A DNA stretch of 64,000 nucleotides from Escherichia phage vB_EcoM_G17, in sequence record MK327931.1. The stretch is one strand, 5' to 3'. The notes under the pieces were generated by a model that worked only from the letters and a program-made list of their open reading frames with translations, had not been told where the DNA came from and did not search any database. Position numbers and translations under genes: made by a program. Every line of letters starts with the position of its first letter. Positions within the stretch are counted from its first letter, which is position 1. Positions 8,976 to 21,990 of the stretch are shown piece by piece.

Positions 8976-9344
8976 CTAACCTCGTTTACGTTTTTTAATT
9001 GTACTGTGCATCTTTTCGAAATAGGGAACCAAAACATATTGAACAGTTTGCCAGATAACCATTAGATTATGCACTGCACCACCAAGGATACCAAACACTA
9101 GAACAATAATTGCCATAATAGGATCACCGTCTACCATACCCCATTTAAAGATATGTAAAATCCAAGCAATGACTAGACAAAATAAACTAAGCCAATACGT
9201 AATGAAAAATCCGGCTTGTAATTCATAATCATCAGCAATTTCATCGTATACCGTTTCTAAAAATGATACACAAAAGAATTTACCAATTATAACCACAGTA
9301 CTAATAAACAGCATAGCAGTTAAGATAATAAGAGCAATTTCCAT
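8976..9344 (-). CDS. small polytopic membrane protein
   Basis: 122 aa; hydrophobic; basic C-terminal tail KKRKRG. Confidence 0.6.
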   Translation of the reverse strand: MEIALIILTAMLFISTVVIIGKFFCVSFLETVYDEIADDYELQAGFFITYWLSLFCLVIAWILHIFKWGMVDGDPIMAIIVLVFGILGGAVHNLMVIWQTVQYVLVPYFEKMHSTIKKRKRG

Positions 9345-9658
9345 TACATCCCTCGTTTACGCTTTTGATTGCGTCTAAATTCTGTTAGTCCACGGCTAAT
9401 CGGCGGCATCAGACTACATAAAAAAGTAACAGTTGTTGGTAGTAACATCAAGTCAATCATTGCTGTATTATCAGGTGGATCACATACCAAATAATACAAA
9501 CAAGTAATACTAATAATGGTTGACCCAATAAAAGGAATACAAAATTCTTTTATCTGTTTTTCAACATAATCAAACATCTTCAGTACAAATAAAAATCCAA
9601 CCCAACACATAATGAAATAGAATGAATACAACGTGTAAATCAATGTTACGATATCCAT
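9344..9658 (-). CDS. small polytopic membrane protein
   Basis: 104 aa; hydrophobic; basic tail RRNQKRKRGM like neighbour. Confidence 0.6.
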   Translation of the reverse strand: MDIVTLIYTLYSFYFIMCWVGFLFVLKMFDYVEKQIKEFCIPFIGSTIISITCLYYLVCDPPDNTAMIDLMLLPTTVTFLCSLMPPISRGLTEFRRNQKRKRGM

Positions 9659-9996
9659 TAGTACCTCGCATCAGGAACTTTAGCACGTAATTTATGAACG
9701 ACTGGGAACAACAACAAACTTACATATGCAATAGTTGAACCCCAATAGAATACTAATACAATTGGTTCACCATTAGAACGGAAACCTCTACTAATCATTG
9801 AGTAGTGAATAATAGGCATAATCATCGCCATACCAAACCATGCGTGTAATTTTAATTGCAGCATGTTATCAGCGATGAATACTGAAATTGGTCGTTTGAA
9901 GAACCACATCAGAAAGTAGAATCCAGCACTAATAATATAGTACAAAGTACTAACTTTCATATACCACGGCAGTAAATCAATAAAGTACTCCATCAT
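9658..9996 (-). CDS. small polytopic membrane protein (paralogue family)
   Basis: 112 aa; WFFKRP after first TM; tail KVPDARY. Confidence 0.6.
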   Translation of the reverse strand: MMEYFIDLLPWYMKVSTLYYIISAGFYFLMWFFKRPISVFIADNMLQLKLHAWFGMAMIMPIIHYSMISRGFRSNGEPIVLVFYWGSTIAYVSLLLFPVVHKLRAKVPDARY

Positions 9997-10340
9997 TCCT
10001 CCGGTATCTTATTTCGAAGTTCAATCATAACACAACAAATTTTAATGGTCAATATAAAAGTTAAACATATCATCCCAAGTGTGCCGTAAACTGCGGAAAA
10101 AGCTGGTAGTACCTTTCCTGTGAGTGTTGCTACAATACATGCAATCAATGTTGATGCAAACAACGATTGATTAATGACAGAATTCATAAAATCTTCACCA
10201 TTACGTTTATAGAATTGTCGTTTAAAATACCATCCTAGAAACATAACTACCCAAAATGATACATAAGTTGTTAGAATAATCCCTGCAAGTGAATGTGCAA
10301 CTGGACTACTCCTTAAAAACTCAAGATAAGCTTCAAACAT
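9993..10340 (-). CDS. small polytopic membrane protein (paralogue family)
   Basis: 115 aa; WYFKRQ after first TM; tail RNKIPEE. Confidence 0.6.
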   Translation of the reverse strand: MFEAYLEFLRSSPVAHSLAGIILTTYVSFWVVMFLGWYFKRQFYKRNGEDFMNSVINQSLFASTLIACIVATLTGKVLPAFSAVYGTLGMICLTFILTIKICCVMIELRNKIPEE

Positions 10341-10678
10341 TAGAAGTCTCCGCGAATTTTATCTCTACCATGAATAATGAGATGGATTAAGTATACAACT
10401 AACCAAATGAACAACCCAAAGAATACAATATATTGTGAGATTGAGTTCAAGTGAGGATTAGCACAATAAATTAAGTGTGCCATAAGACCAACAATTGCAA
10501 ACAAACCTTGAACAAGTGTGTAAAGAACTAGTGATGAATTCCTCACTGGATACAGTTTAAAAACAATTTTCTTTTTAAAATACCATAGTACTACAACTAG
10601 TGCATGATAAAAGAAAAAACCAAACAGATAAATCAAAGTAATACTAATCATTGTATCTGATTTAAAAAATTCTAACAT
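10340..10678 (-). CDS. small polytopic membrane protein (paralogue family)
   Basis: Start at MLEFFKSD aligns with neighbour MREFFESN; WYFKKK motif. Confidence 0.6.
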   Translation of the reverse strand: MLEFFKSDTMISITLIYLFGFFFYHALVVVLWYFKKKIVFKLYPVRNSSLVLYTLVQGLFAIVGLMAHLIYCANPHLNSISQYIVFFGLFIWLVVYLIHLIIHGRDKIRGDF

Positions 10679-11019
10679 TAGAATCCCCATTTAAAGTTAT
10701 TACGAGCTTTAATAATAAAGTACATAGTACACACCAATAACCAGACGATTAGTCCTGAAAACACAACATATTGTGTAATGTGTGGTGTGTTATCAATTTG
10801 TAACATGTAAATCACATATGTCATCACACCAAATAAAATAAACCCACCTTGTATAATGCTATATACAACTAAGAATACATTATCATACGAATACAATTTA
10901 AAAACAACTTTCCTTTTAAAATACCAAAGACTAATTACAATTGAATGATAAAACAAGAATACAAACATGTATATCAGTGTAATACCAAGCATTATATTAG
11001 ATTCAAAAAACTCACGCAT
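10678..11019 (-). CDS. small polytopic membrane protein (paralogue family)
   Basis: 113 aa; clear paralogue of 10340..10678. Confidence 0.65.
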   Translation of the reverse strand: MREFFESNIMLGITLIYMFVFLFYHSIVISLWYFKRKVVFKLYSYDNVFLVVYSIIQGGFILFGVMTYVIYMLQIDNTPHITQYVVFSGLIVWLLVCTMYFIIKARNNFKWGF

Positions 11020-11084: not shown

Positions 11085-11855
11085 TTAAATTTTCTCAAGG
11101 AACAAGTTTTCGCACTGTTCTTCCCAATCGTATGGGTTGTTGTTATATACTGCCGAAATCAACAGTGGCATACGCAGTGAAGGTGAACGAAGAGAATCTT
11201 CATGTTTTAACATCCAGTTCAGAATTGCTTTACTACCGTTACTGTTAACACCTTTAGATGCAAGGATATTAGTCTTAGTCATTACATTTTCAATATGAAT
11301 CATGATATCACTTTTAGTCTGAATCTGTAAATCCACGTACACAGAACGAGACATAAGAGCAGCATAATGAGCAGACATTTTAGTTTTAGCTTTAGCATCT
11401 AACGCTAAATCTTTGTTAGTAATGAATACGATGCGACCATTAAAATCAAAGCTATTAGGAATTCCGTTAGTGCTCAAGTACTTAGAGCTAGTCATATAAG
11501 ACACGGTACGCTTACCACTATCCAGTACTGCTTTGAGCAGGTTCATACCGTCTTCAGAATCAAAAATACTGTCCATATCGTCCAGTACTAACACGTTGGT
11601 GCTGTGACGATTCTTGTACAGAACTTCGTACAGAGCCAGTGTAGTCATCTTACCACTGATAGTAGCTACGTTCCATTCTGCTGCGTCATGAGCCTTCTGG
11701 AGACGTTGGGACAAGGTGTAAGTCTTACCAACACCAGGAGCACCACTGACAACCATACTTTTTACAGTACTGCTATCATCGAGCAAACACTCAAGAGCAA
11801 CCATCATGGAGTTGAAGTTTTTCTGAATTTGAATGCTGCGTGCTTCTCTGGTCAT
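11085..11855 (-). CDS. P-loop NTPase (AAA-like ATPase)
   Basis: Walker A GAPGVGKT; Walker B-like VLVLDDMD. Confidence 0.7.
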   Translation of the reverse strand: MTREARSIQIQKNFNSMMVALECLLDDSSTVKSMVVSGAPGVGKTYTLSQRLQKAHDAAEWNVATISGKMTTLALYEVLYKNRHSTNVLVLDDMDSIFDSEDGMNLLKAVLDSGKRTVSYMTSSKYLSTNGIPNSFDFNGRIVFITNKDLALDAKAKTKMSAHYAALMSRSVYVDLQIQTKSDIMIHIENVMTKTNILASKGVNSNGSKAILNWMLKHEDSLRSPSLRMPLLISAVYNNNPYDWEEQCENLFLEKI

Positions 11856-11883
11856 TTCTTTACCCTCTTCAGTTGATGAAATG

Positions 11884-11920
11884 ATTATAGCAAAAAGGGC
11901 TGACCGAAGTCAACCCTTTT
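11884..11920 (-). promoter_or_regulatory. Stem-loop embedded in sigma70-like promoter (PeSL-like) / terminator
   Basis: Minus strand reads aaaagGGTTGACttcgGTCAGCCCtttttgcTATAAT: TTGACT, 18-nt spacer containing hairpin, TATAAT; copy 1 of 8. Confidence 0.6.
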
Positions 11921-11923
11921 GTT

Positions 11924-13042
11924 TTAGATAATTTGTACTTCACCATAGATCTGCACGATTTGCTTTCCTGGATTCTCTTCAATGAGTTTAAGGAAAGATT
12001 TCAATGCTCCAATATGGTCTTCATAATACGCAATACGAATGAAGTTATATCCATTTTTTATTGCGTATTCTGTTTTGATTTTATCGTGTTTTTTCCTCAT
12101 AAGTCCGTTTCCCCATCCTGATTCACGTTCTTCAAAGTGATTACTACCATCATATTCAAATAACGTATTAATATCACGAATATAAAAATCATATGGAAGT
12201 TTTGATTTATTTTTTAAATCAGGAAATGTTTTCTCTCTTTCAGTAACAAACATTCCTCTCAAAAACTCTTTACAATCATTATGACCAAATGAGTGTGTTT
12301 CTAATTGGGAACAACATCCACACTTTTGTGCTTGTTTACTAGTAAACGCATAATAGTCTTGATTACACTCGTGTCCTTTATCACATATATATTTTACATA
12401 ATAACGACCATTTGATTTCTTGTAAACTTCTTTTAATGTATATCCTAGTTCATTACAGCGTGTGTTAGCAATTGTTTCACGCATTTCAGGTGTTATAAAA
12501 TATCTAACGTTCATTGATGTTTTTGTAATTATATCATTTATTCTTCGTGGTTGTGTAAATCCATCGGAATATGTGAATTTAATATATGACATTATCCCAT
12601 TGTCTAAATGTTCATTTTCATATATATAGCATCCTCTTTCCTCAAGAGAACCCAATTTGGTTACATAGTAATAATAATTTTCATCTGTATAGGTAAATGA
12701 TGGCTTGAATTTATTGTTTGTTATTTTTTCAAGCTTTGTTTTTAAACCAGTTATTTTATAATTATCATACAATACCCCATTATACATAATCAGTAAATTG
12801 TTATTACTATTTCCGTTTTTACCAAACTCACGTGATGATTTAACTGATAATCCAATAATAGTAATATTGTCAATATCTTTGTTTTTTAATTTTGCTTCTA
12901 TGTCATCAACATGATCCTTAGCAGTGAGTCCTTTTGAAACCCTTTTTATATCTTCAGGCTTCATCCATTCAAAACGCATACCAAGTTCTTCATGAAAATA
13001 AACTTTTTCACCATCTTCATTTAAATAATACTGTTCAAACAT
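11924..13042 (-). CDS. Putative endonuclease with C-terminal Vsr/DUF559-like PD-(D/E)XK domain (possible homing endonuclease)
   Basis: 372 aa; C-terminus PYDFYIRDINTLFEYDGSNHFE...NGYNFIRI matches DUF559 pattern; Cys cluster CDKGHEC...CGCC. Confidence 0.55.
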   Translation of the reverse strand: MFEQYYLNEDGEKVYFHEELGMRFEWMKPEDIKRVSKGLTAKDHVDDIEAKLKNKDIDNITIIGLSVKSSREFGKNGNSNNNLLIMYNGVLYDNYKITGLKTKLEKITNNKFKPSFTYTDENYYYYVTKLGSLEERGCYIYENEHLDNGIMSYIKFTYSDGFTQPRRINDIITKTSMNVRYFITPEMRETIANTRCNELGYTLKEVYKKSNGRYYVKYICDKGHECNQDYYAFTSKQAQKCGCCSQLETHSFGHNDCKEFLRGMFVTEREKTFPDLKNKSKLPYDFYIRDINTLFEYDGSNHFEERESGWGNGLMRKKHDKIKTEYAIKNGYNFIRIAYYEDHIGALKSFLKLIEENPGKQIVQIYGEVQII

Positions 13043-13271
13043 TACTTAATACTCCTTTCCAGTACTGAACCCGTCCAGCACCATTAATCTTAGCTTTAAT
13101 CTTATCTTTTTCGACAAGACCTTCTTTGAAATCGATGGAAGTATTATCGCACTGAATTACATCTAAGTCAAGTACTTCTTGTGTACTTAATGAAGTATTA
13201 TCTGCAATTTGTTGTAAAGTAATTACATCAGTACCGAAGAATTCAGCTAATCGTATAAAAGATAGTTTCAT
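13035..13271 (-). CDS. hypothetical protein (78 aa)
   Basis: ORF in co-oriented array. Confidence 0.5.
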   Translation of the reverse strand: MKLSFIRLAEFFGTDVITLQQIADNTSLSTQEVLDLDVIQCDNTSIDFKEGLVEKDKIKAKINGAGRVQYWKGVLSNV

Positions 13272-13297
13272 TTGTTACCTCTTGTGTTGATGAAATA

Positions 13298-13334
13298 ATT
13301 ATAGCAAAAAGGGCTGACCGAAGTCAACCCTTTA
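13298..13334 (-). promoter_or_regulatory. PeSL-like stem-loop/promoter (copy 2)
   Basis: Same 45-bp element as at 11884: gggctgaccgaagtcaaccc + attata. Confidence 0.6.
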
Positions 13335-13336
13335 TG

Positions 13337-13997: not shown

Positions 13998-14035
13998 GTT
14001 ATGTTCCTTTGTGTAACCGAAGTCAACCCTTTCCT

Positions 14036-14579: not shown

Positions 14580-14616
14580 ATTATAGCAAAAAGGGCTGAC
14601 CGAAGTCAACCCTTTT
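14580..14616 (-). promoter_or_regulatory. PeSL-like stem-loop/promoter (copy 3)
   Basis: gatgaaataattatagcaaaaagggctgaccgaagtcaaccc, upstream of denV. Confidence 0.6.
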
Positions 14617-21949: not shown

Positions 21950-21990
21950 TTATGATACAACAAAGGGCTGACCTTAGTCAACCCCTTTTT
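21950..21990 (-). promoter_or_regulatory. PeSL-like stem-loop (copy 7, loop variant)
   Basis: gggctgaccTTAGtcaacccc; minus strand TTGACT-N18-TATCAT. Confidence 0.5.

What the first reader, a model, noticed from the sequence alone, without database searches (positions are those of the whole stretch)
11085..13042. Vsr/DUF559-type nuclease with N-terminal extension next to a P-loop ATPase
The 372-aa ORF ends with a PD-(D/E)XK signature of the Vsr/DUF559 type (PYDFYIRD...LFEYDGSNHFE...NGYNFIRI), preceded by a Cys cluster and a roughly 230-aa N-terminal region of unknown function. It sits between two PeSL elements, as expected for a mobile cassette. The adjacent 256-aa protein has Walker A GAPGVGKT and Walker B-like VLVLDDMD. 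The pair could be a homing endonuclease plus an unrelated ATPase, or a two-gene nuclease/ATPase module.
Basis: partly seen in the sequence, partly recalled or inferred. Interest (0 to 1): 0.45.

Follow-up and report, generated by a model that had tools for sequence, protein, structure and literature searches.

The report
Free-standing homing endonuclease gene hotspot
The 372-aa gene is a selfish, mobile "homing" nuclease of a known family, sitting in a slot where related giant coliphages carry other nucleases or nothing, and the ATPase next door is an unrelated conserved phage gene, so the finding is real but ordinary.

Summary
The window is Escherichia phage Sharanji, a 350-kb Asteriusvirus.

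Across 13 related phages the flanking genes stay conserved: gp130 is 94-98% identical in the six genomes compared, and the ATPase 96-99.6% in all but UE-S1 (59%). The slot between them varies. It holds this gene, a chimera with the same nuclease and another N-terminus, T5orf172-like nucleases, a frameshifted copy, unrelated ORFs, or nothing.

The ATPase is the homolog of T4 NrdC.10, found in about 1,300 phage genomes. It is present whatever occupies the slot, so the two-gene module idea is rejected.

The two flanking PeSL promoter/stem-loop repeats bracket gp130 plus the nuclease gene. Two phages lack that whole unit.

In passing: the palindrome CAGTACTG occurs 40 times in the window against about 0.8 expected.

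The parts
11924..13042 (-). Free-standing homing endonuclease gene (Sharanji gp129, 372 aa) of the Vsr-like/EDxHD family.
11927..12307 (-). C-terminal part of the protein. Residues 246-340 form the Vsr-fold nuclease core, with candidate catalytic residues E270, D285, (E296/D298), H302 and D320. Residues 341-372 form a helix plus beta-hairpin tail that is nearly invariant among homologs.
12308..13042 (-). N-terminal extension, residues 1-245. It comprises a beta-hairpin module (1-35), an α/β module A (36-110), a degenerate zinc-ribbon module B (111-180) and an intact zinc-ribbon module C (181-245; C220, H224, C241, C244). It is the presumed DNA-binding and targeting region.
13035..13271 (-). 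gp130, a 78-aa ORF of unknown function. It is the upstream partner in the PeSL-bounded unit. Its last codons carry the nuclease gene's Shine-Dalgarno sequence (AAGGAG, 13052-13057), and its stop codon overlaps the nuclease ATG.
   Evidence: It is 94-98% identical in the six genomes compared pairwise and is absent from SP27 and UE-S1.
13058..13070 (-). The 13-mer GTTCAGTACTGGA, which contains the palindrome CAGTACTG. It lies 16 nt upstream of the nuclease ATG. It is invariant in all aligned alleles, including a homolog in an unrelated genomic context. It is a candidate recognition element or a co-mobilised flank, and neither role is proven.
13272..13336 (-). Upstream PeSL. A sigma70-like promoter (TTGACT, 18 nt, TATAAT, with TG) is embedded in an 11-12-bp stem-loop with a UUCG loop followed by a U-run.
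   Evidence: fold -21.1 kcal/mol, z -4.9.
11856..11923 (-). Downstream PeSL. It is the likely terminator for the gp130-nuclease transcript and the likely promoter for the ATPase gene. It also marks the right boundary of the insertion.
   Evidence: fold -20 kcal/mol, z -3.4. The element is shared at the nucleotide level with Vibrio, Erwinia and Klebsiella phages.
11085..11855 (-). Conserved AAA-type P-loop ATPase (gp128, 256 aa), the homolog of T4 NrdC.10. It is a neighbour of the nuclease and not its partner. It is a possible homing target.
   Evidence: Pfam AAA PF00004 scores 24 bits against a cut-off of 21.2. PHROG 1250 at 2e-103. tblastn finds 1,308 phage records, including genes annotated nrdC.10. 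It is 96-99.6% identical across 12 of the 13 Asteriusvirus loci.

Best explanation
gp129 is a free-standing homing endonuclease gene of the Vsr-like EDxHD family. The experimentally studied members are I-Bth0305I and the T-even phage U5 protein Hef.

Shown by the sequence and comparisons:
- The gene is inserted precisely between the last codons of the small gene gp130 and a PeSL promoter/terminator element, upstream of the conserved NrdC.10-like ATPase gene.
- It uses a Shine-Dalgarno sequence that lies inside gp130.
- The two PeSL repeats bracket gp130 plus the nuclease gene as a unit, and that whole unit is absent from two relatives.
- The ATPase is a conserved bystander.

Inferred:
- The gene is transcribed from the upstream PeSL promoter as the second gene of a two-gene early transcript, which ends at the downstream PeSL hairpin.
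- Its N-terminal string of CapR/DUF723-type modules binds a long DNA site.
- Its C-terminal Vsr-fold domain cuts both strands, probably as a dimer.
- During mixed infection with a related phage that lacks this allele, the cut would be repaired by copying from the nuclease-carrying genome. That spreads the gene together with flanking sequence (intronless homing, or marker exclusion).
- The whole bracketed unit can be lost or gained by recombination between the two direct PeSL repeats.
For: Fold and residues:
- E270, D285, H302 and D320 are invariant or nearly invariant in 16-23 homologs.
- They align with the same residues of an annotated group I intron VSR homing endonuclease.
- The D285-to-H302 spacing of 17 equals the D196-to-H213 spacing in I-Bth0305I (PMC3239194).

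Family:
- tblastn of the domain hits 369 phage records, including intron-borne VSR homing endonucleases that interrupt terminase genes.
- PHROG 9084 'homing endonuclease' matches.

Mobility signature:
- In 13 Asteriusvirus loci the flanks are conserved while the slot varies.
- The slot holds this gene (Sharanji, JP4, and vB_Ec-M-J at 60% aa identity).
- It holds a chimera with the same nuclease and tail and a different N-terminus (ELP-22).
- It holds T5orf172-like nucleases (PBECO4, 121Q, UB, phAPEC6), a frameshifted copy (E9.1) or unrelated ORFs (BF17).
- SD-15_S21 has no nuclease gene. SP27 and UE-S1 lack both gp130 and the nuclease gene.
- The insertion boundaries are ORF-precise.
- The gene is 99.7% identical between Sharanji and JP4, while the adjacent gp130 is 92-97% identical at the nucleotide level.
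- GC is 29% against 40% for the ATPase gene.
- The same gp130|nuclease|ATPase arrangement recurs in metagenomic relatives whose gp130 is 64-78% identical to Sharanji's. In one of them the ATPase on a same-length contig is 60% identical.
- The ATPase gene shows raised, mostly silent nucleotide divergence (86-96% per 150 nt) beside neighbours at 97-100%. That is what co-conversion of flanks would produce.

PeSL:
-.
- The element matches the A3-4G3-loop-C3T3-4 type described for nt-1/KVP40 (PMC4122927).
Against: - No cleavage activity, target site or homing has been shown for this protein or any close relative.
- Catalytic residues were mapped by alignment and spacing, not by structural superposition at residue level.
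- No Pfam model (Vsr, DUF559) matches the protein, and no PDB sequence matches it even with a profile.
- The only nuclease-free allele that keeps gp130 (SD-15_S21) has lost the gp130 stop codon. It could therefore be a deletion derivative rather than a naive target.
- In 10 of 13 loci the slot holds some ORF, so long-term vertical descent with fast divergence and domain swapping cannot be fully separated from repeated invasion.
Confidence: 0.8

Rival explanations
1. The nuclease and the ATPase form a two-gene functional module, such as an ATP-dependent nuclease, a defence system or a counter-defence system.
For: The genes are adjacent, on the same strand and 68 nt apart. ATPase-plus-nuclease pairs are common in defence systems; this is general knowledge and was not tested here.
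Against: - The ATPase is 96-99.6% identical next to six or more unrelated slot occupants and next to empty slots in SP27 and SD-15_S21.
- It is the homolog of T4 NrdC.10 in 1,308 phage records that mostly lack this nuclease.
- A PeSL terminator/promoter separates the two genes.
- The nuclease homolog P0004 sits in a neighbourhood with no 78-aa or roughly 256-aa neighbouring gene.
- PADLOC gives no match for the nuclease and only generic P-loop noise for the ATPase.
Confidence: 0.03
2. gp129 is a Vsr-fold nuclease kept for a phage function, such as exclusion of competing phages, host or satellite DNA attack, or gene regulation like the domesticated CapR. It would not be an actively homing element.
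For: Some nuclease-like ORF occupies the slot in 10 of 13 relatives. CapR-type DNA-binding modules have been domesticated as repressors in PLE satellites (PMC10448857). The ORF is intact, and the JP4 copy differs by a single residue.
Against: - The gene is dispensable, because three relatives lack any nuclease in the slot.
- One relative carries a frameshifted copy.
- Occupants belong to different nuclease families. That fits serial invasion better than a conserved function.
- The catalytic residues are intact, unlike in pure repressors.
Confidence: 0.1
3. gp130 and the nuclease are a functional pair, with gp130 acting for example as a specificity, regulatory or immunity factor. Together they would form the true mobile cassette bounded by the PeSLs.
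For: The stop and start codons overlap and the Shine-Dalgarno sequence lies inside gp130. Both genes lie between the two PeSL repeats and are jointly absent from SP27 and UE-S1. The overlap is conserved in relatives whose gp130 is only 64-78% identical.
Against: - gp130 stays 94-98% identical while the downstream gene is replaced by unrelated nucleases.
- gp130 occurs without any nuclease in SD-15_S21.
- The homolog P0004 has no gp130-sized gene upstream.
- gp130 has no recognisable domain.
Confidence: 0.07

Closest known systems
I-Bth0305I, the prototype of the EDxHD (Vsr-like) homing endonuclease family (PDB 3R3P; PMC3239194)
   Different: I-Bth0305I is encoded inside a group I intron in recA and uses NUMOD2/HTH-type N-terminal motifs. 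gp129 is free-standing between genes and uses CapR/DUF723/DUF4379-type zinc-ribbon modules, plus an extra conserved 32-aa C-terminal tail. Sequence similarity is too low for HMMER to detect.
Hef of T-even phage U5, a free-standing Vsr-like homing endonuclease that replaces mobE next to nrdB (Sandegren et al. 2005, cited in PMC3239194 and PMC2988022)
   Same: Both are free-standing Vsr-like nuclease genes in a T4-related or large myovirus genome. Each occupies an intergenic slot where other phages carry a homing endonuclease gene of a different family.
   Different: The locus and phage lineage differ.
T5orf172 homing endonucleases with CapR/DUF723/DUF4397 'beads-on-a-string' DNA-binding repeats, which show domain swapping (Barth et al. 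2023, PMC10448857)
   Same: They use the same kind of zinc-ribbon targeting modules. They show the same modular recombination: Sharanji and PBECO4 share the N-terminal module but have different nuclease domains, while Sharanji and ELP-22 share the nuclease and tail but have different N-termini. In both cases the nuclease genes sit at boundaries of genetic exchange.
   Different: The catalytic domain here is Vsr/EDxHD and not GIY-YIG/T5orf172.
PeSL (promoter-early stem-loop) mobile regulatory cassettes of T4-type phages (Arbiol et al. 2010, PMC2839356; Comeau et al. 2014, PMC4122927)
   Same: Both combine a sigma70-type promoter with a stem-loop. The stem is of the A3-4G3-loop-C3T3-4 type. Copies are repeated between small genes, and gene gain or loss occurs exactly between copies.
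   Different: PeSLs were described in T4-like phages (RB49/phi1, T4/PST, KVP40/nt-1). Here they are in a 350-kb Asteriusvirus jumbo phage. Neither '121Q' nor 'jumbo' occurs in the 2014 PeSL paper. Here the -35 hexamer lies inside the stem.
T4 NrdC.10 ('uncharacterized 36.7 kDa protein in nrdC-mobD intergenic region')
   Same: The 256-aa ATPase is about 40% identical over about 80% of its length to genes annotated nrdC.10 in T4-like phages. The Walker A and B motifs are conserved.
   Different: The Asteriusvirus protein is shorter, 256 aa against about 320 aa. The function of the family is unknown.

Membership tests
EDxHD / Vsr-like homing endonucleases (I-Bth0305I, Hef) | Catalytic domain with the Vsr endonuclease fold. 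| tested here: met
EDxHD / Vsr-like homing endonucleases (I-Bth0305I, Hef) | Conserved composite catalytic motif E-D-x-H-D. | tested here: met
   E270 is nearly invariant, and D285, H302 and D320 are invariant. All four align with E, D, H and D of the KSAP7 intron VSR homing endonuclease. The D-to-H spacing of 17 matches I-Bth0305I. The mapping rests on alignment, not on atomic superposition.
EDxHD / Vsr-like homing endonucleases (I-Bth0305I, Hef) | Separate N-terminal DNA-binding region. | tested here: inconclusive
   A confidently folded 245-aa N-terminal region exists. It includes one intact zinc ribbon of the CapR/DUF723/DUF4379 type. It is not the NUMOD2/HTH type of I-Bth0305I, and DNA binding is inferred only.
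EDxHD / Vsr-like homing endonucleases (I-Bth0305I, Hef) | Sporadic presence at a fixed site between or within conserved genes in close relatives. | tested here: met
   Across 13 Asteriusvirus loci the slot is empty, occupied by this gene, or occupied by other nuclease genes, and the flanks are conserved.
EDxHD / Vsr-like homing endonucleases (I-Bth0305I, Hef) | Site-specific double-strand cleavage of the allele that lacks the gene, and biased inheritance. | not testable with these tools
   This needs in vitro cleavage assays and phage crosses.
Vsr mismatch-repair endonuclease / DUF559 (Pfam PF03852, PF04480) | Match to the family's sequence model. | tested here: not met
   No Pfam hit to either model at E up to 1. 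A relative, Yersinia phage g123, has only a sub-threshold DUF559 hit at E 0.043. The protein shares the fold but is not a member of these sequence families.
PeSL promoter/stem-loop cassettes | A sigma70-type -35/-10 pair combined with a stable stem-loop, repeated in intergenic regions. | tested here: met
   TTGACT, 18 nt, TATAAT with an extended-10 TG. An 11-12-bp stem with a UUCG loop, z -3.4 to -5.0. Three exact copies and at least four diverged copies in the window.
PeSL promoter/stem-loop cassettes | Gene insertions, deletions or replacements between close relatives that are bounded by the elements. | tested here: met
   SP27 and UE-S1 have a single PeSL where Sharanji has PeSL-gp130-nuclease-PeSL. 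JP4 has an extra 203-aa ORF between gp131 and gp130.
PeSL promoter/stem-loop cassettes | Early transcription start and termination in vivo. | not testable with these tools
   This needs 5'/3' end mapping of transcripts.
T4 NrdC.10-like AAA ATPase | Sequence homology to nrdC.10 of T4-type phages, with intact Walker A and B motifs. | tested here: met
   38-44% identity over 73-85% of the query to genes annotated nrdC.10 or as the T4 36.7 kDa protein. GAPGVGKT and VLVLDDMD are present. PHROG 1250 at 2e-103.
ATPase-nuclease two-gene defence or anti-defence module | The two genes co-occur and co-vary across genomes. | tested here: not met
   The ATPase is constant while the nuclease is variable or absent. 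The nuclease homolog P0004 lacks such an ATPase neighbour. PADLOC finds no system.

The most novel reading that the evidence does not exclude
This slot may be a natural domain-swap series. One shared N-terminal targeting module (MFEQYYLNEDGEKVYFHEE...) is fused in different phages either to a Vsr/EDxHD nuclease or to a T5orf172-like nuclease. Both kinds would be aimed at a site that includes the pseudo-palindromic 13-mer GTTCAGTACTGGA, 16 nt upstream of the insertion point. That 13-mer also lies upstream of a homolog in an unrelated genomic context. It contains CAGTACTG, a palindrome about 50-fold over-represented throughout this phage lineage. If the nuclease family really recognises this genome-wide motif, the motif and the nucleases could be functionally linked. 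The motif could, for example, be a landing-pad system for homing endonuclease genes, or the nucleases could be co-opted to act at motif sites.
Probability: 0.07. Interest if true: 0.7.

Novelty: new member of a known kind. Interest (0 to 1): 0.27.

Why it matters
The work assigns a function to a gene annotated as hypothetical in the Sharanji record. The paper describing the phage does not mention homing endonucleases. It also removes a tempting but wrong 'nuclease plus ATPase system' reading.

The locus is a compact, well-sampled example of the homing endonuclease life cycle in jumbo coliphages. It shows invasion, replacement by other families, domain swapping, frameshift decay and loss. It also extends PeSL-bounded gene shuffling from T4-like phages to the Asteriusvirus lineage.

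None of this changes current understanding. The enzyme family, the targeting modules and the PeSL mechanism are all published.

The unexplained genome-wide CAGTACTG palindrome, seen in passing, is probably the more interesting lead.

Tried and rejected
1. Sequence searches of the PDB, with the protein and with a profile of the nuclease domain, gave nothing meaningful. Only fold comparison linked the protein to Vsr and I-Bth0305I.

2. Pfam and NCBIfam gave no significant hit for the nuclease.

3. I suspected that the conserved C-terminal tail (residues 341-372) is shared with the T5orf172-type nucleases of PBECO4 and 121Q, because MAFFT aligned them. An HMM of the tail does not hit those proteins at E up to 10, so this is not supported. 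The HMM is narrow, so the negative result is weak.

4. I tested whether N-terminal modules A, B and C are sequence repeats of one another. hhalign probabilities are below 5%. Only the alignment with homolog P0004, where module B keeps its zinc ligands, supports module B as a degenerate zinc ribbon.

6. I first read the invariant 13-mer upstream of the ectopic homolog (L018) as proof of a co-mobilised flank. That inference weakened once CAGTACTG turned out to be very frequent in that contig, at 3.1 per kb.

7. PADLOC was searched for a defence-system assignment and found none.

8. A literature search for the palindrome returned only unrelated primer sequences among the 15 best-ranked papers shown.
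Full report
**Source and observation**

The window is 100% identical to Escherichia phage Sharanji (OR545507.1), a 350-kb jumbo myovirus of the genus Asteriusvirus. The two ORFs of the finding are gp129 (372 aa, window 11924-13042, minus strand) and gp128 (256 aa, 11085-11855, minus strand). Both are annotated 'hypothetical protein'.

These are the PYDFYIRD / LFEYDGSNHFE / NGYNFIRI motif, the Cys cluster, Walker A GAPGVGKT and Walker B VLVLDDMD.

The flanking 'PeSL' elements are real. A 36-nt sequence, AAAGGGTTGACTTCGGTCAGCCCTTTTTGCTATAAT, occurs three times exactly (11884-11919, 13298-13333, 14580-14615) and once with three mismatches. None is expected by chance. A looser scan finds further diverged copies at about 21.8, 22.0 and 25.2 kb and possibly 20.2 kb.

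Each copy combines a near-consensus sigma70 promoter (TTGACT, 18 nt, TATAAT, with an extended-10 TG) with an 11-12-bp stem. The stem is closed by a UUCG loop and followed by a U-run (-20 to -24 kcal/mol, z -3.4 to -5.0).

The two elements bracket the 78-aa gene gp130 plus the nuclease gene. The nuclease ATG overlaps the gp130 stop codon, and its Shine-Dalgarno sequence AAGGAG lies inside gp130.

**What the 372-aa protein is**

Pfam, NCBIfam and sequence searches of the PDB gave nothing significant. PHROGs places the protein in family 559 (7e-24) and in family 9084, 'homing endonuclease' (4e-16).

tblastn with the last 128 residues finds 369 phage records. Many are group I intron ORFs of Staphylococcus Twort-like phages, annotated for example 'group I intron-associated VSR homing endonuclease' and interrupting the terminase gene. 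Pairwise BLASTP to that KSAP7 protein gives 33% identity over 123 residues, E 3e-12.

The family was defined by Taylor et al. (PMC3239194) as the 'EDxHD' homing endonucleases. It has catalytic D196, H213 and D222 and a further acidic residue, and it includes the free-standing Hef proteins of T-even phages. In gp129 the corresponding E270, D285, H302 and D320 are invariant or nearly invariant across homologs. D285 to H302 is 17 residues, the same as D196 to H213.

**The N-terminal extension**

A separate model of residues 1-245 is confident (pLDDT 86, pTM 0.67). It shows four parts:
- a beta-hairpin module (1-35);
- an α/β module A (36-110);
- an α/β module B (111-180);
- an α/β module C (181-245) with an intact zinc ribbon (C220, H224, C241, C244).

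Homologs carry Pfam CapR (PF21817), DUF723 (PF05265) and DUF4379 (PF14311) in this region. In homolog P0004 module B retains its zinc ligands, so module B in gp129 is a degenerate copy. Sequence-level repeat detection among the modules failed.

Barth et al. (PMC10448857) describe exactly such CapR/DUF723 zinc-finger 'beads on a string' as the DNA-binding part of T5orf172 homing endonucleases. They also report frequent domain swapping.

**The slot in relatives**

I fetched the region from 12 further Asteriusvirus genomes and located the anchor genes by tblastn.

The flanks are conserved. In the six genomes compared pairwise, gp130 is 94-98% and the ATPase 96-99.6% identical at the protein level. 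tblastn gives the same picture for the other genomes. The exception is UE-S1, whose ATPase is only 59% identical.

The gene between the flanks is not conserved:

| Phage(s) | Slot content |
|---|---|
| Sharanji, JP4 | This gene (99.7% nt identity between the two) |
| vB_Ec-M-J | Homolog of this gene, 60% aa identity |
| ELP-22 (SHEFM2K probably the same; only its nuclease 3' end was seen) | 474-aa protein with the same nuclease core and an identical tail but an unrelated N-terminus |
| PBECO4 | 379-aa protein with gp129's N-terminal module and a PHROG 681 / T5orf172-like C-terminus |
| 121Q, UB | 487-aa protein with CapR domains and the same PHROG 681-type C-terminus |
| phAPEC6 | 628-aa protein |
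| E9.1 | The phAPEC6 gene, broken by a 77-nt duplication in its internal repeats |
| BF17 | Two unrelated ORFs |
| SD-15_S21 | gp130 followed directly by the PeSL; no nuclease gene |
| SP27, UE-S1 | gp131, one PeSL, then the ATPase; no gp130 and no nuclease gene |

At the nucleotide level the insertion is ORF-precise...GGAGTATTAAGTAA | TGTTTGAACAG ... ATTATCTAAAAC | AAAAGGGTTGAC....

Several further observations fit mobility:
- Between Sharanji and JP4, identity is 99-100% over the nuclease gene and the start of the ATPase gene. It drops to 92-97% in gp130.
- The ATPase gene shows 86-96% nucleotide identity per 150 nt between phages whose neighbouring genes are 97-100% identical, while its protein stays at 96% or more. 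This pattern is expected from co-conversion of flanks.
- The nuclease gene has 29.1% GC, against 39.8% for the ATPase gene and 33.6% for the window.
- Metagenomic relatives show the same gp130 | nuclease | ATPase order, with the same overlapping start. Their gp130 is 64% and 78% identical to Sharanji's. In one, a 60%-identical ATPase homolog has the same longest-contig length as the nuclease homolog (30,521 nt) and is probably the adjacent 254-aa gene. The other carries a second Vsr-type nuclease gene on the opposite strand.
- Homolog P0004 (44% identity, full length) lies in a different neighbourhood.

**The ATPase**

gp128 matches AAA-type P-loop models (PF00004 above its cut-off) and PHROG 1250 (2e-103, function unknown). 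tblastn finds it in 1,308 phage records, including essentially all T4-like genera. There the gene is annotated nrdC.10, or 'uncharacterized 36.7 kDa protein in nrdC-mobD intergenic region [T4]'.

It is therefore a conserved large-myovirus gene of unknown function. It is present regardless of what sits upstream. A PeSL hairpin and promoter separate it from the nuclease gene. PADLOC finds no defence-system match. The 'two-gene nuclease/ATPase module' reading is rejected. As the conserved gene next to the slot, the ATPase is a plausible homing target, but that is inference.

**Mechanism**

Shown:
- the gene structure;
- the promoter- and terminator-like elements;
- the nuclease fold and conserved catalytic residues;
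- the replacement and absence polymorphism with conserved flanks.

Inferred:
- gp130 and gp129 are co-transcribed early from the upstream PeSL, and the transcript ends at the downstream PeSL.
- The protein binds a long site through its N-terminal modules. It cuts both strands as a dimer, like I-Bth0305I, which gives 2-nt 5' overhangs at a 14-bp pseudo-palindrome.
- In mixed infections the break in a genome lacking this allele is repaired from the Sharanji copy. That transfers the gene and its flanks, as in the intronless homing and marker exclusion described for T4 seg and mob genes.
- Recombination between the two direct PeSL repeats can delete or insert the whole gp130-nuclease unit. This is the mechanism proposed for PeSLs in T4-type phages.

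The target site is unknown. A candidate is the pseudo-palindromic 13-mer GTTCAGTACTGGA (13058-13070), 16 nt upstream of the ATG. It is invariant in all aligned alleles and also lies upstream of the ectopic homolog in L018. That could equally be a co-mobilised flank, or partly chance, given how common its core is (see below).

**Comparison and novelty**

The closest known systems are:
- the EDxHD homing endonucleases I-Bth0305I (intron-borne) and Hef (free-standing in T-even phages), for the nuclease;
- the T5orf172 homing endonucleases of ICP1-like phages, for the targeting modules and the domain swapping;
- the PeSLs of T4-type phages, for the flanking repeats;
- T4 NrdC.10, for the ATPase.

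The combination of CapR/DUF723-type modules with an EDxHD nuclease is already present in public annotation, in PHROG 559 and in the Staphylococcus intron ORFs. JP4's identical gene is already labelled 'homing endonuclease'.

This is a new member of a known kind, in a nicely polymorphic slot. The paper describing Sharanji does not mention it.

**Side observation**

The 8-bp palindrome CAGTACTG occurs 40 times in the window, against 0.81 expected and a maximum of 3 in 100 shuffles. It is the most over-represented 8-mer in the window, and its core AGTACT occurs 180 times against about 22 expected.

By a crude ORF map, 28 of the 40 sites lie in coding sequence, in all three reading phases, and 12 lie between ORFs. 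Several of the intergenic sites sit in the spacer just before the -10 box of sigma70-like promoters.

Density is 0.4-1.1 per kb in all Asteriusvirus loci and 1.2-3.1 per kb in the metagenomic relatives. It is zero in the T4-like, Aeromonas, Yersinia (Eneladusvirus) and Staphylococcus phage loci fetched.

Positions in the ATPase orthologs are partly conserved and partly turned over. A text search for the sequence returned only unrelated papers among the 15 best-ranked shown. I have no explanation for the motif.

Noticed in passing
Whole window, e.g. 1517, 6894, 11523, 11765, 13060, 16357, 31285, 48262, 48671; also loci L001-L013 and L016-L020: The palindrome CAGTACTG occurs 40 times in 64 kb against 0.81 expected, and is the top over-represented 8-mer. 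Its core AGTACT occurs 180 times against about 22 expected. By a crude ORF map, 28 sites are in coding sequence in all three phases and 12 are intergenic. Some lie in promoter spacers just before the -10 box. Density is 0.4-3.1 per kb in Asteriusvirus-like loci and zero in the T4-like, Aeromonas, Yersinia and Staphylococcus phage loci. The function is unknown, and a text search gave only unrelated papers among those shown.
   Followed up: partly
window 8239-11019 (minus strand): A tandem array of eight small (104-141 aa) predicted membrane proteins, gp120-gp127. The last two are clear paralogs; blastn finds about 78-80% nucleotide cross-matches between neighbouring genes. Copy number differs between relatives. 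For example gp127 is missing in phAPEC6, PBECO4 and E9.1, and a similar array follows the ATPase gene in metagenomic relatives.
   Followed up: no
window 288-324, 1548-1584, 2357-2392, 4696-4737: A repeated block, AAAGGAGGGAAT(T)ATGTTACCTTTT, is a Shine-Dalgarno sequence plus the first codons of plus-strand genes. Three of the four copies are preceded by CCAGTACT...AGTACTGG hairpin terminators. This suggests a family of paralogous genes with conserved 5' ends. The neighbouring genes are annotated RCC1-like in relatives.
   Followed up: no
L012 (UE-S1) 3074-3847; JNE01 record OR670491.1 288819-289586: The NrdC.10-like ATPase exists as a second allele only 59% identical at the protein level, within otherwise 93-97% identical surroundings. 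It occurs both without a nuclease gene (UE-S1) and next to a Vsr-type nuclease gene (JNE01). This suggests allelic replacement of the gene that flanks the nuclease slot.
   Followed up: partly
L002 (JP4) 5845-6456 and 7772-8185; L009 (vB_Ec-M-J) 6412-6825; L007 (UB) 6364-6558: Other cassette polymorphisms lie nearby. JP4 has an extra 203-aa ORF between gp131 and gp130. An HNH endonuclease gene lies just downstream of denV in JP4 and vB_Ec-M-J, with a shorter ORF under the same annotation in UB. It is absent from Sharanji at window about 13998-14035.
   Followed up: no
L016 5320-5360; L012 around 3884-3908; window 21952-21989: PeSL copies keep the stem but change the loop. UUCG becomes GAAA in a metagenomic relative, UUUA in UE-S1 and UAAG in a window copy. 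This is consistent with selection on the hairpin and not on its sequence.
   Followed up: partly
L019 3552-4529 (opposite strand) and L010 (E9.1) 2533-4496: A metagenomic relative carries a second Vsr-type nuclease gene on the opposite strand, between the first nuclease gene and the ATPase gene. It has three zinc-ribbon repeats plus a nuclease domain. In E9.1 the phAPEC6-type nuclease gene is split by a 77-nt duplication inside its internal repeats.
   Followed up: partly
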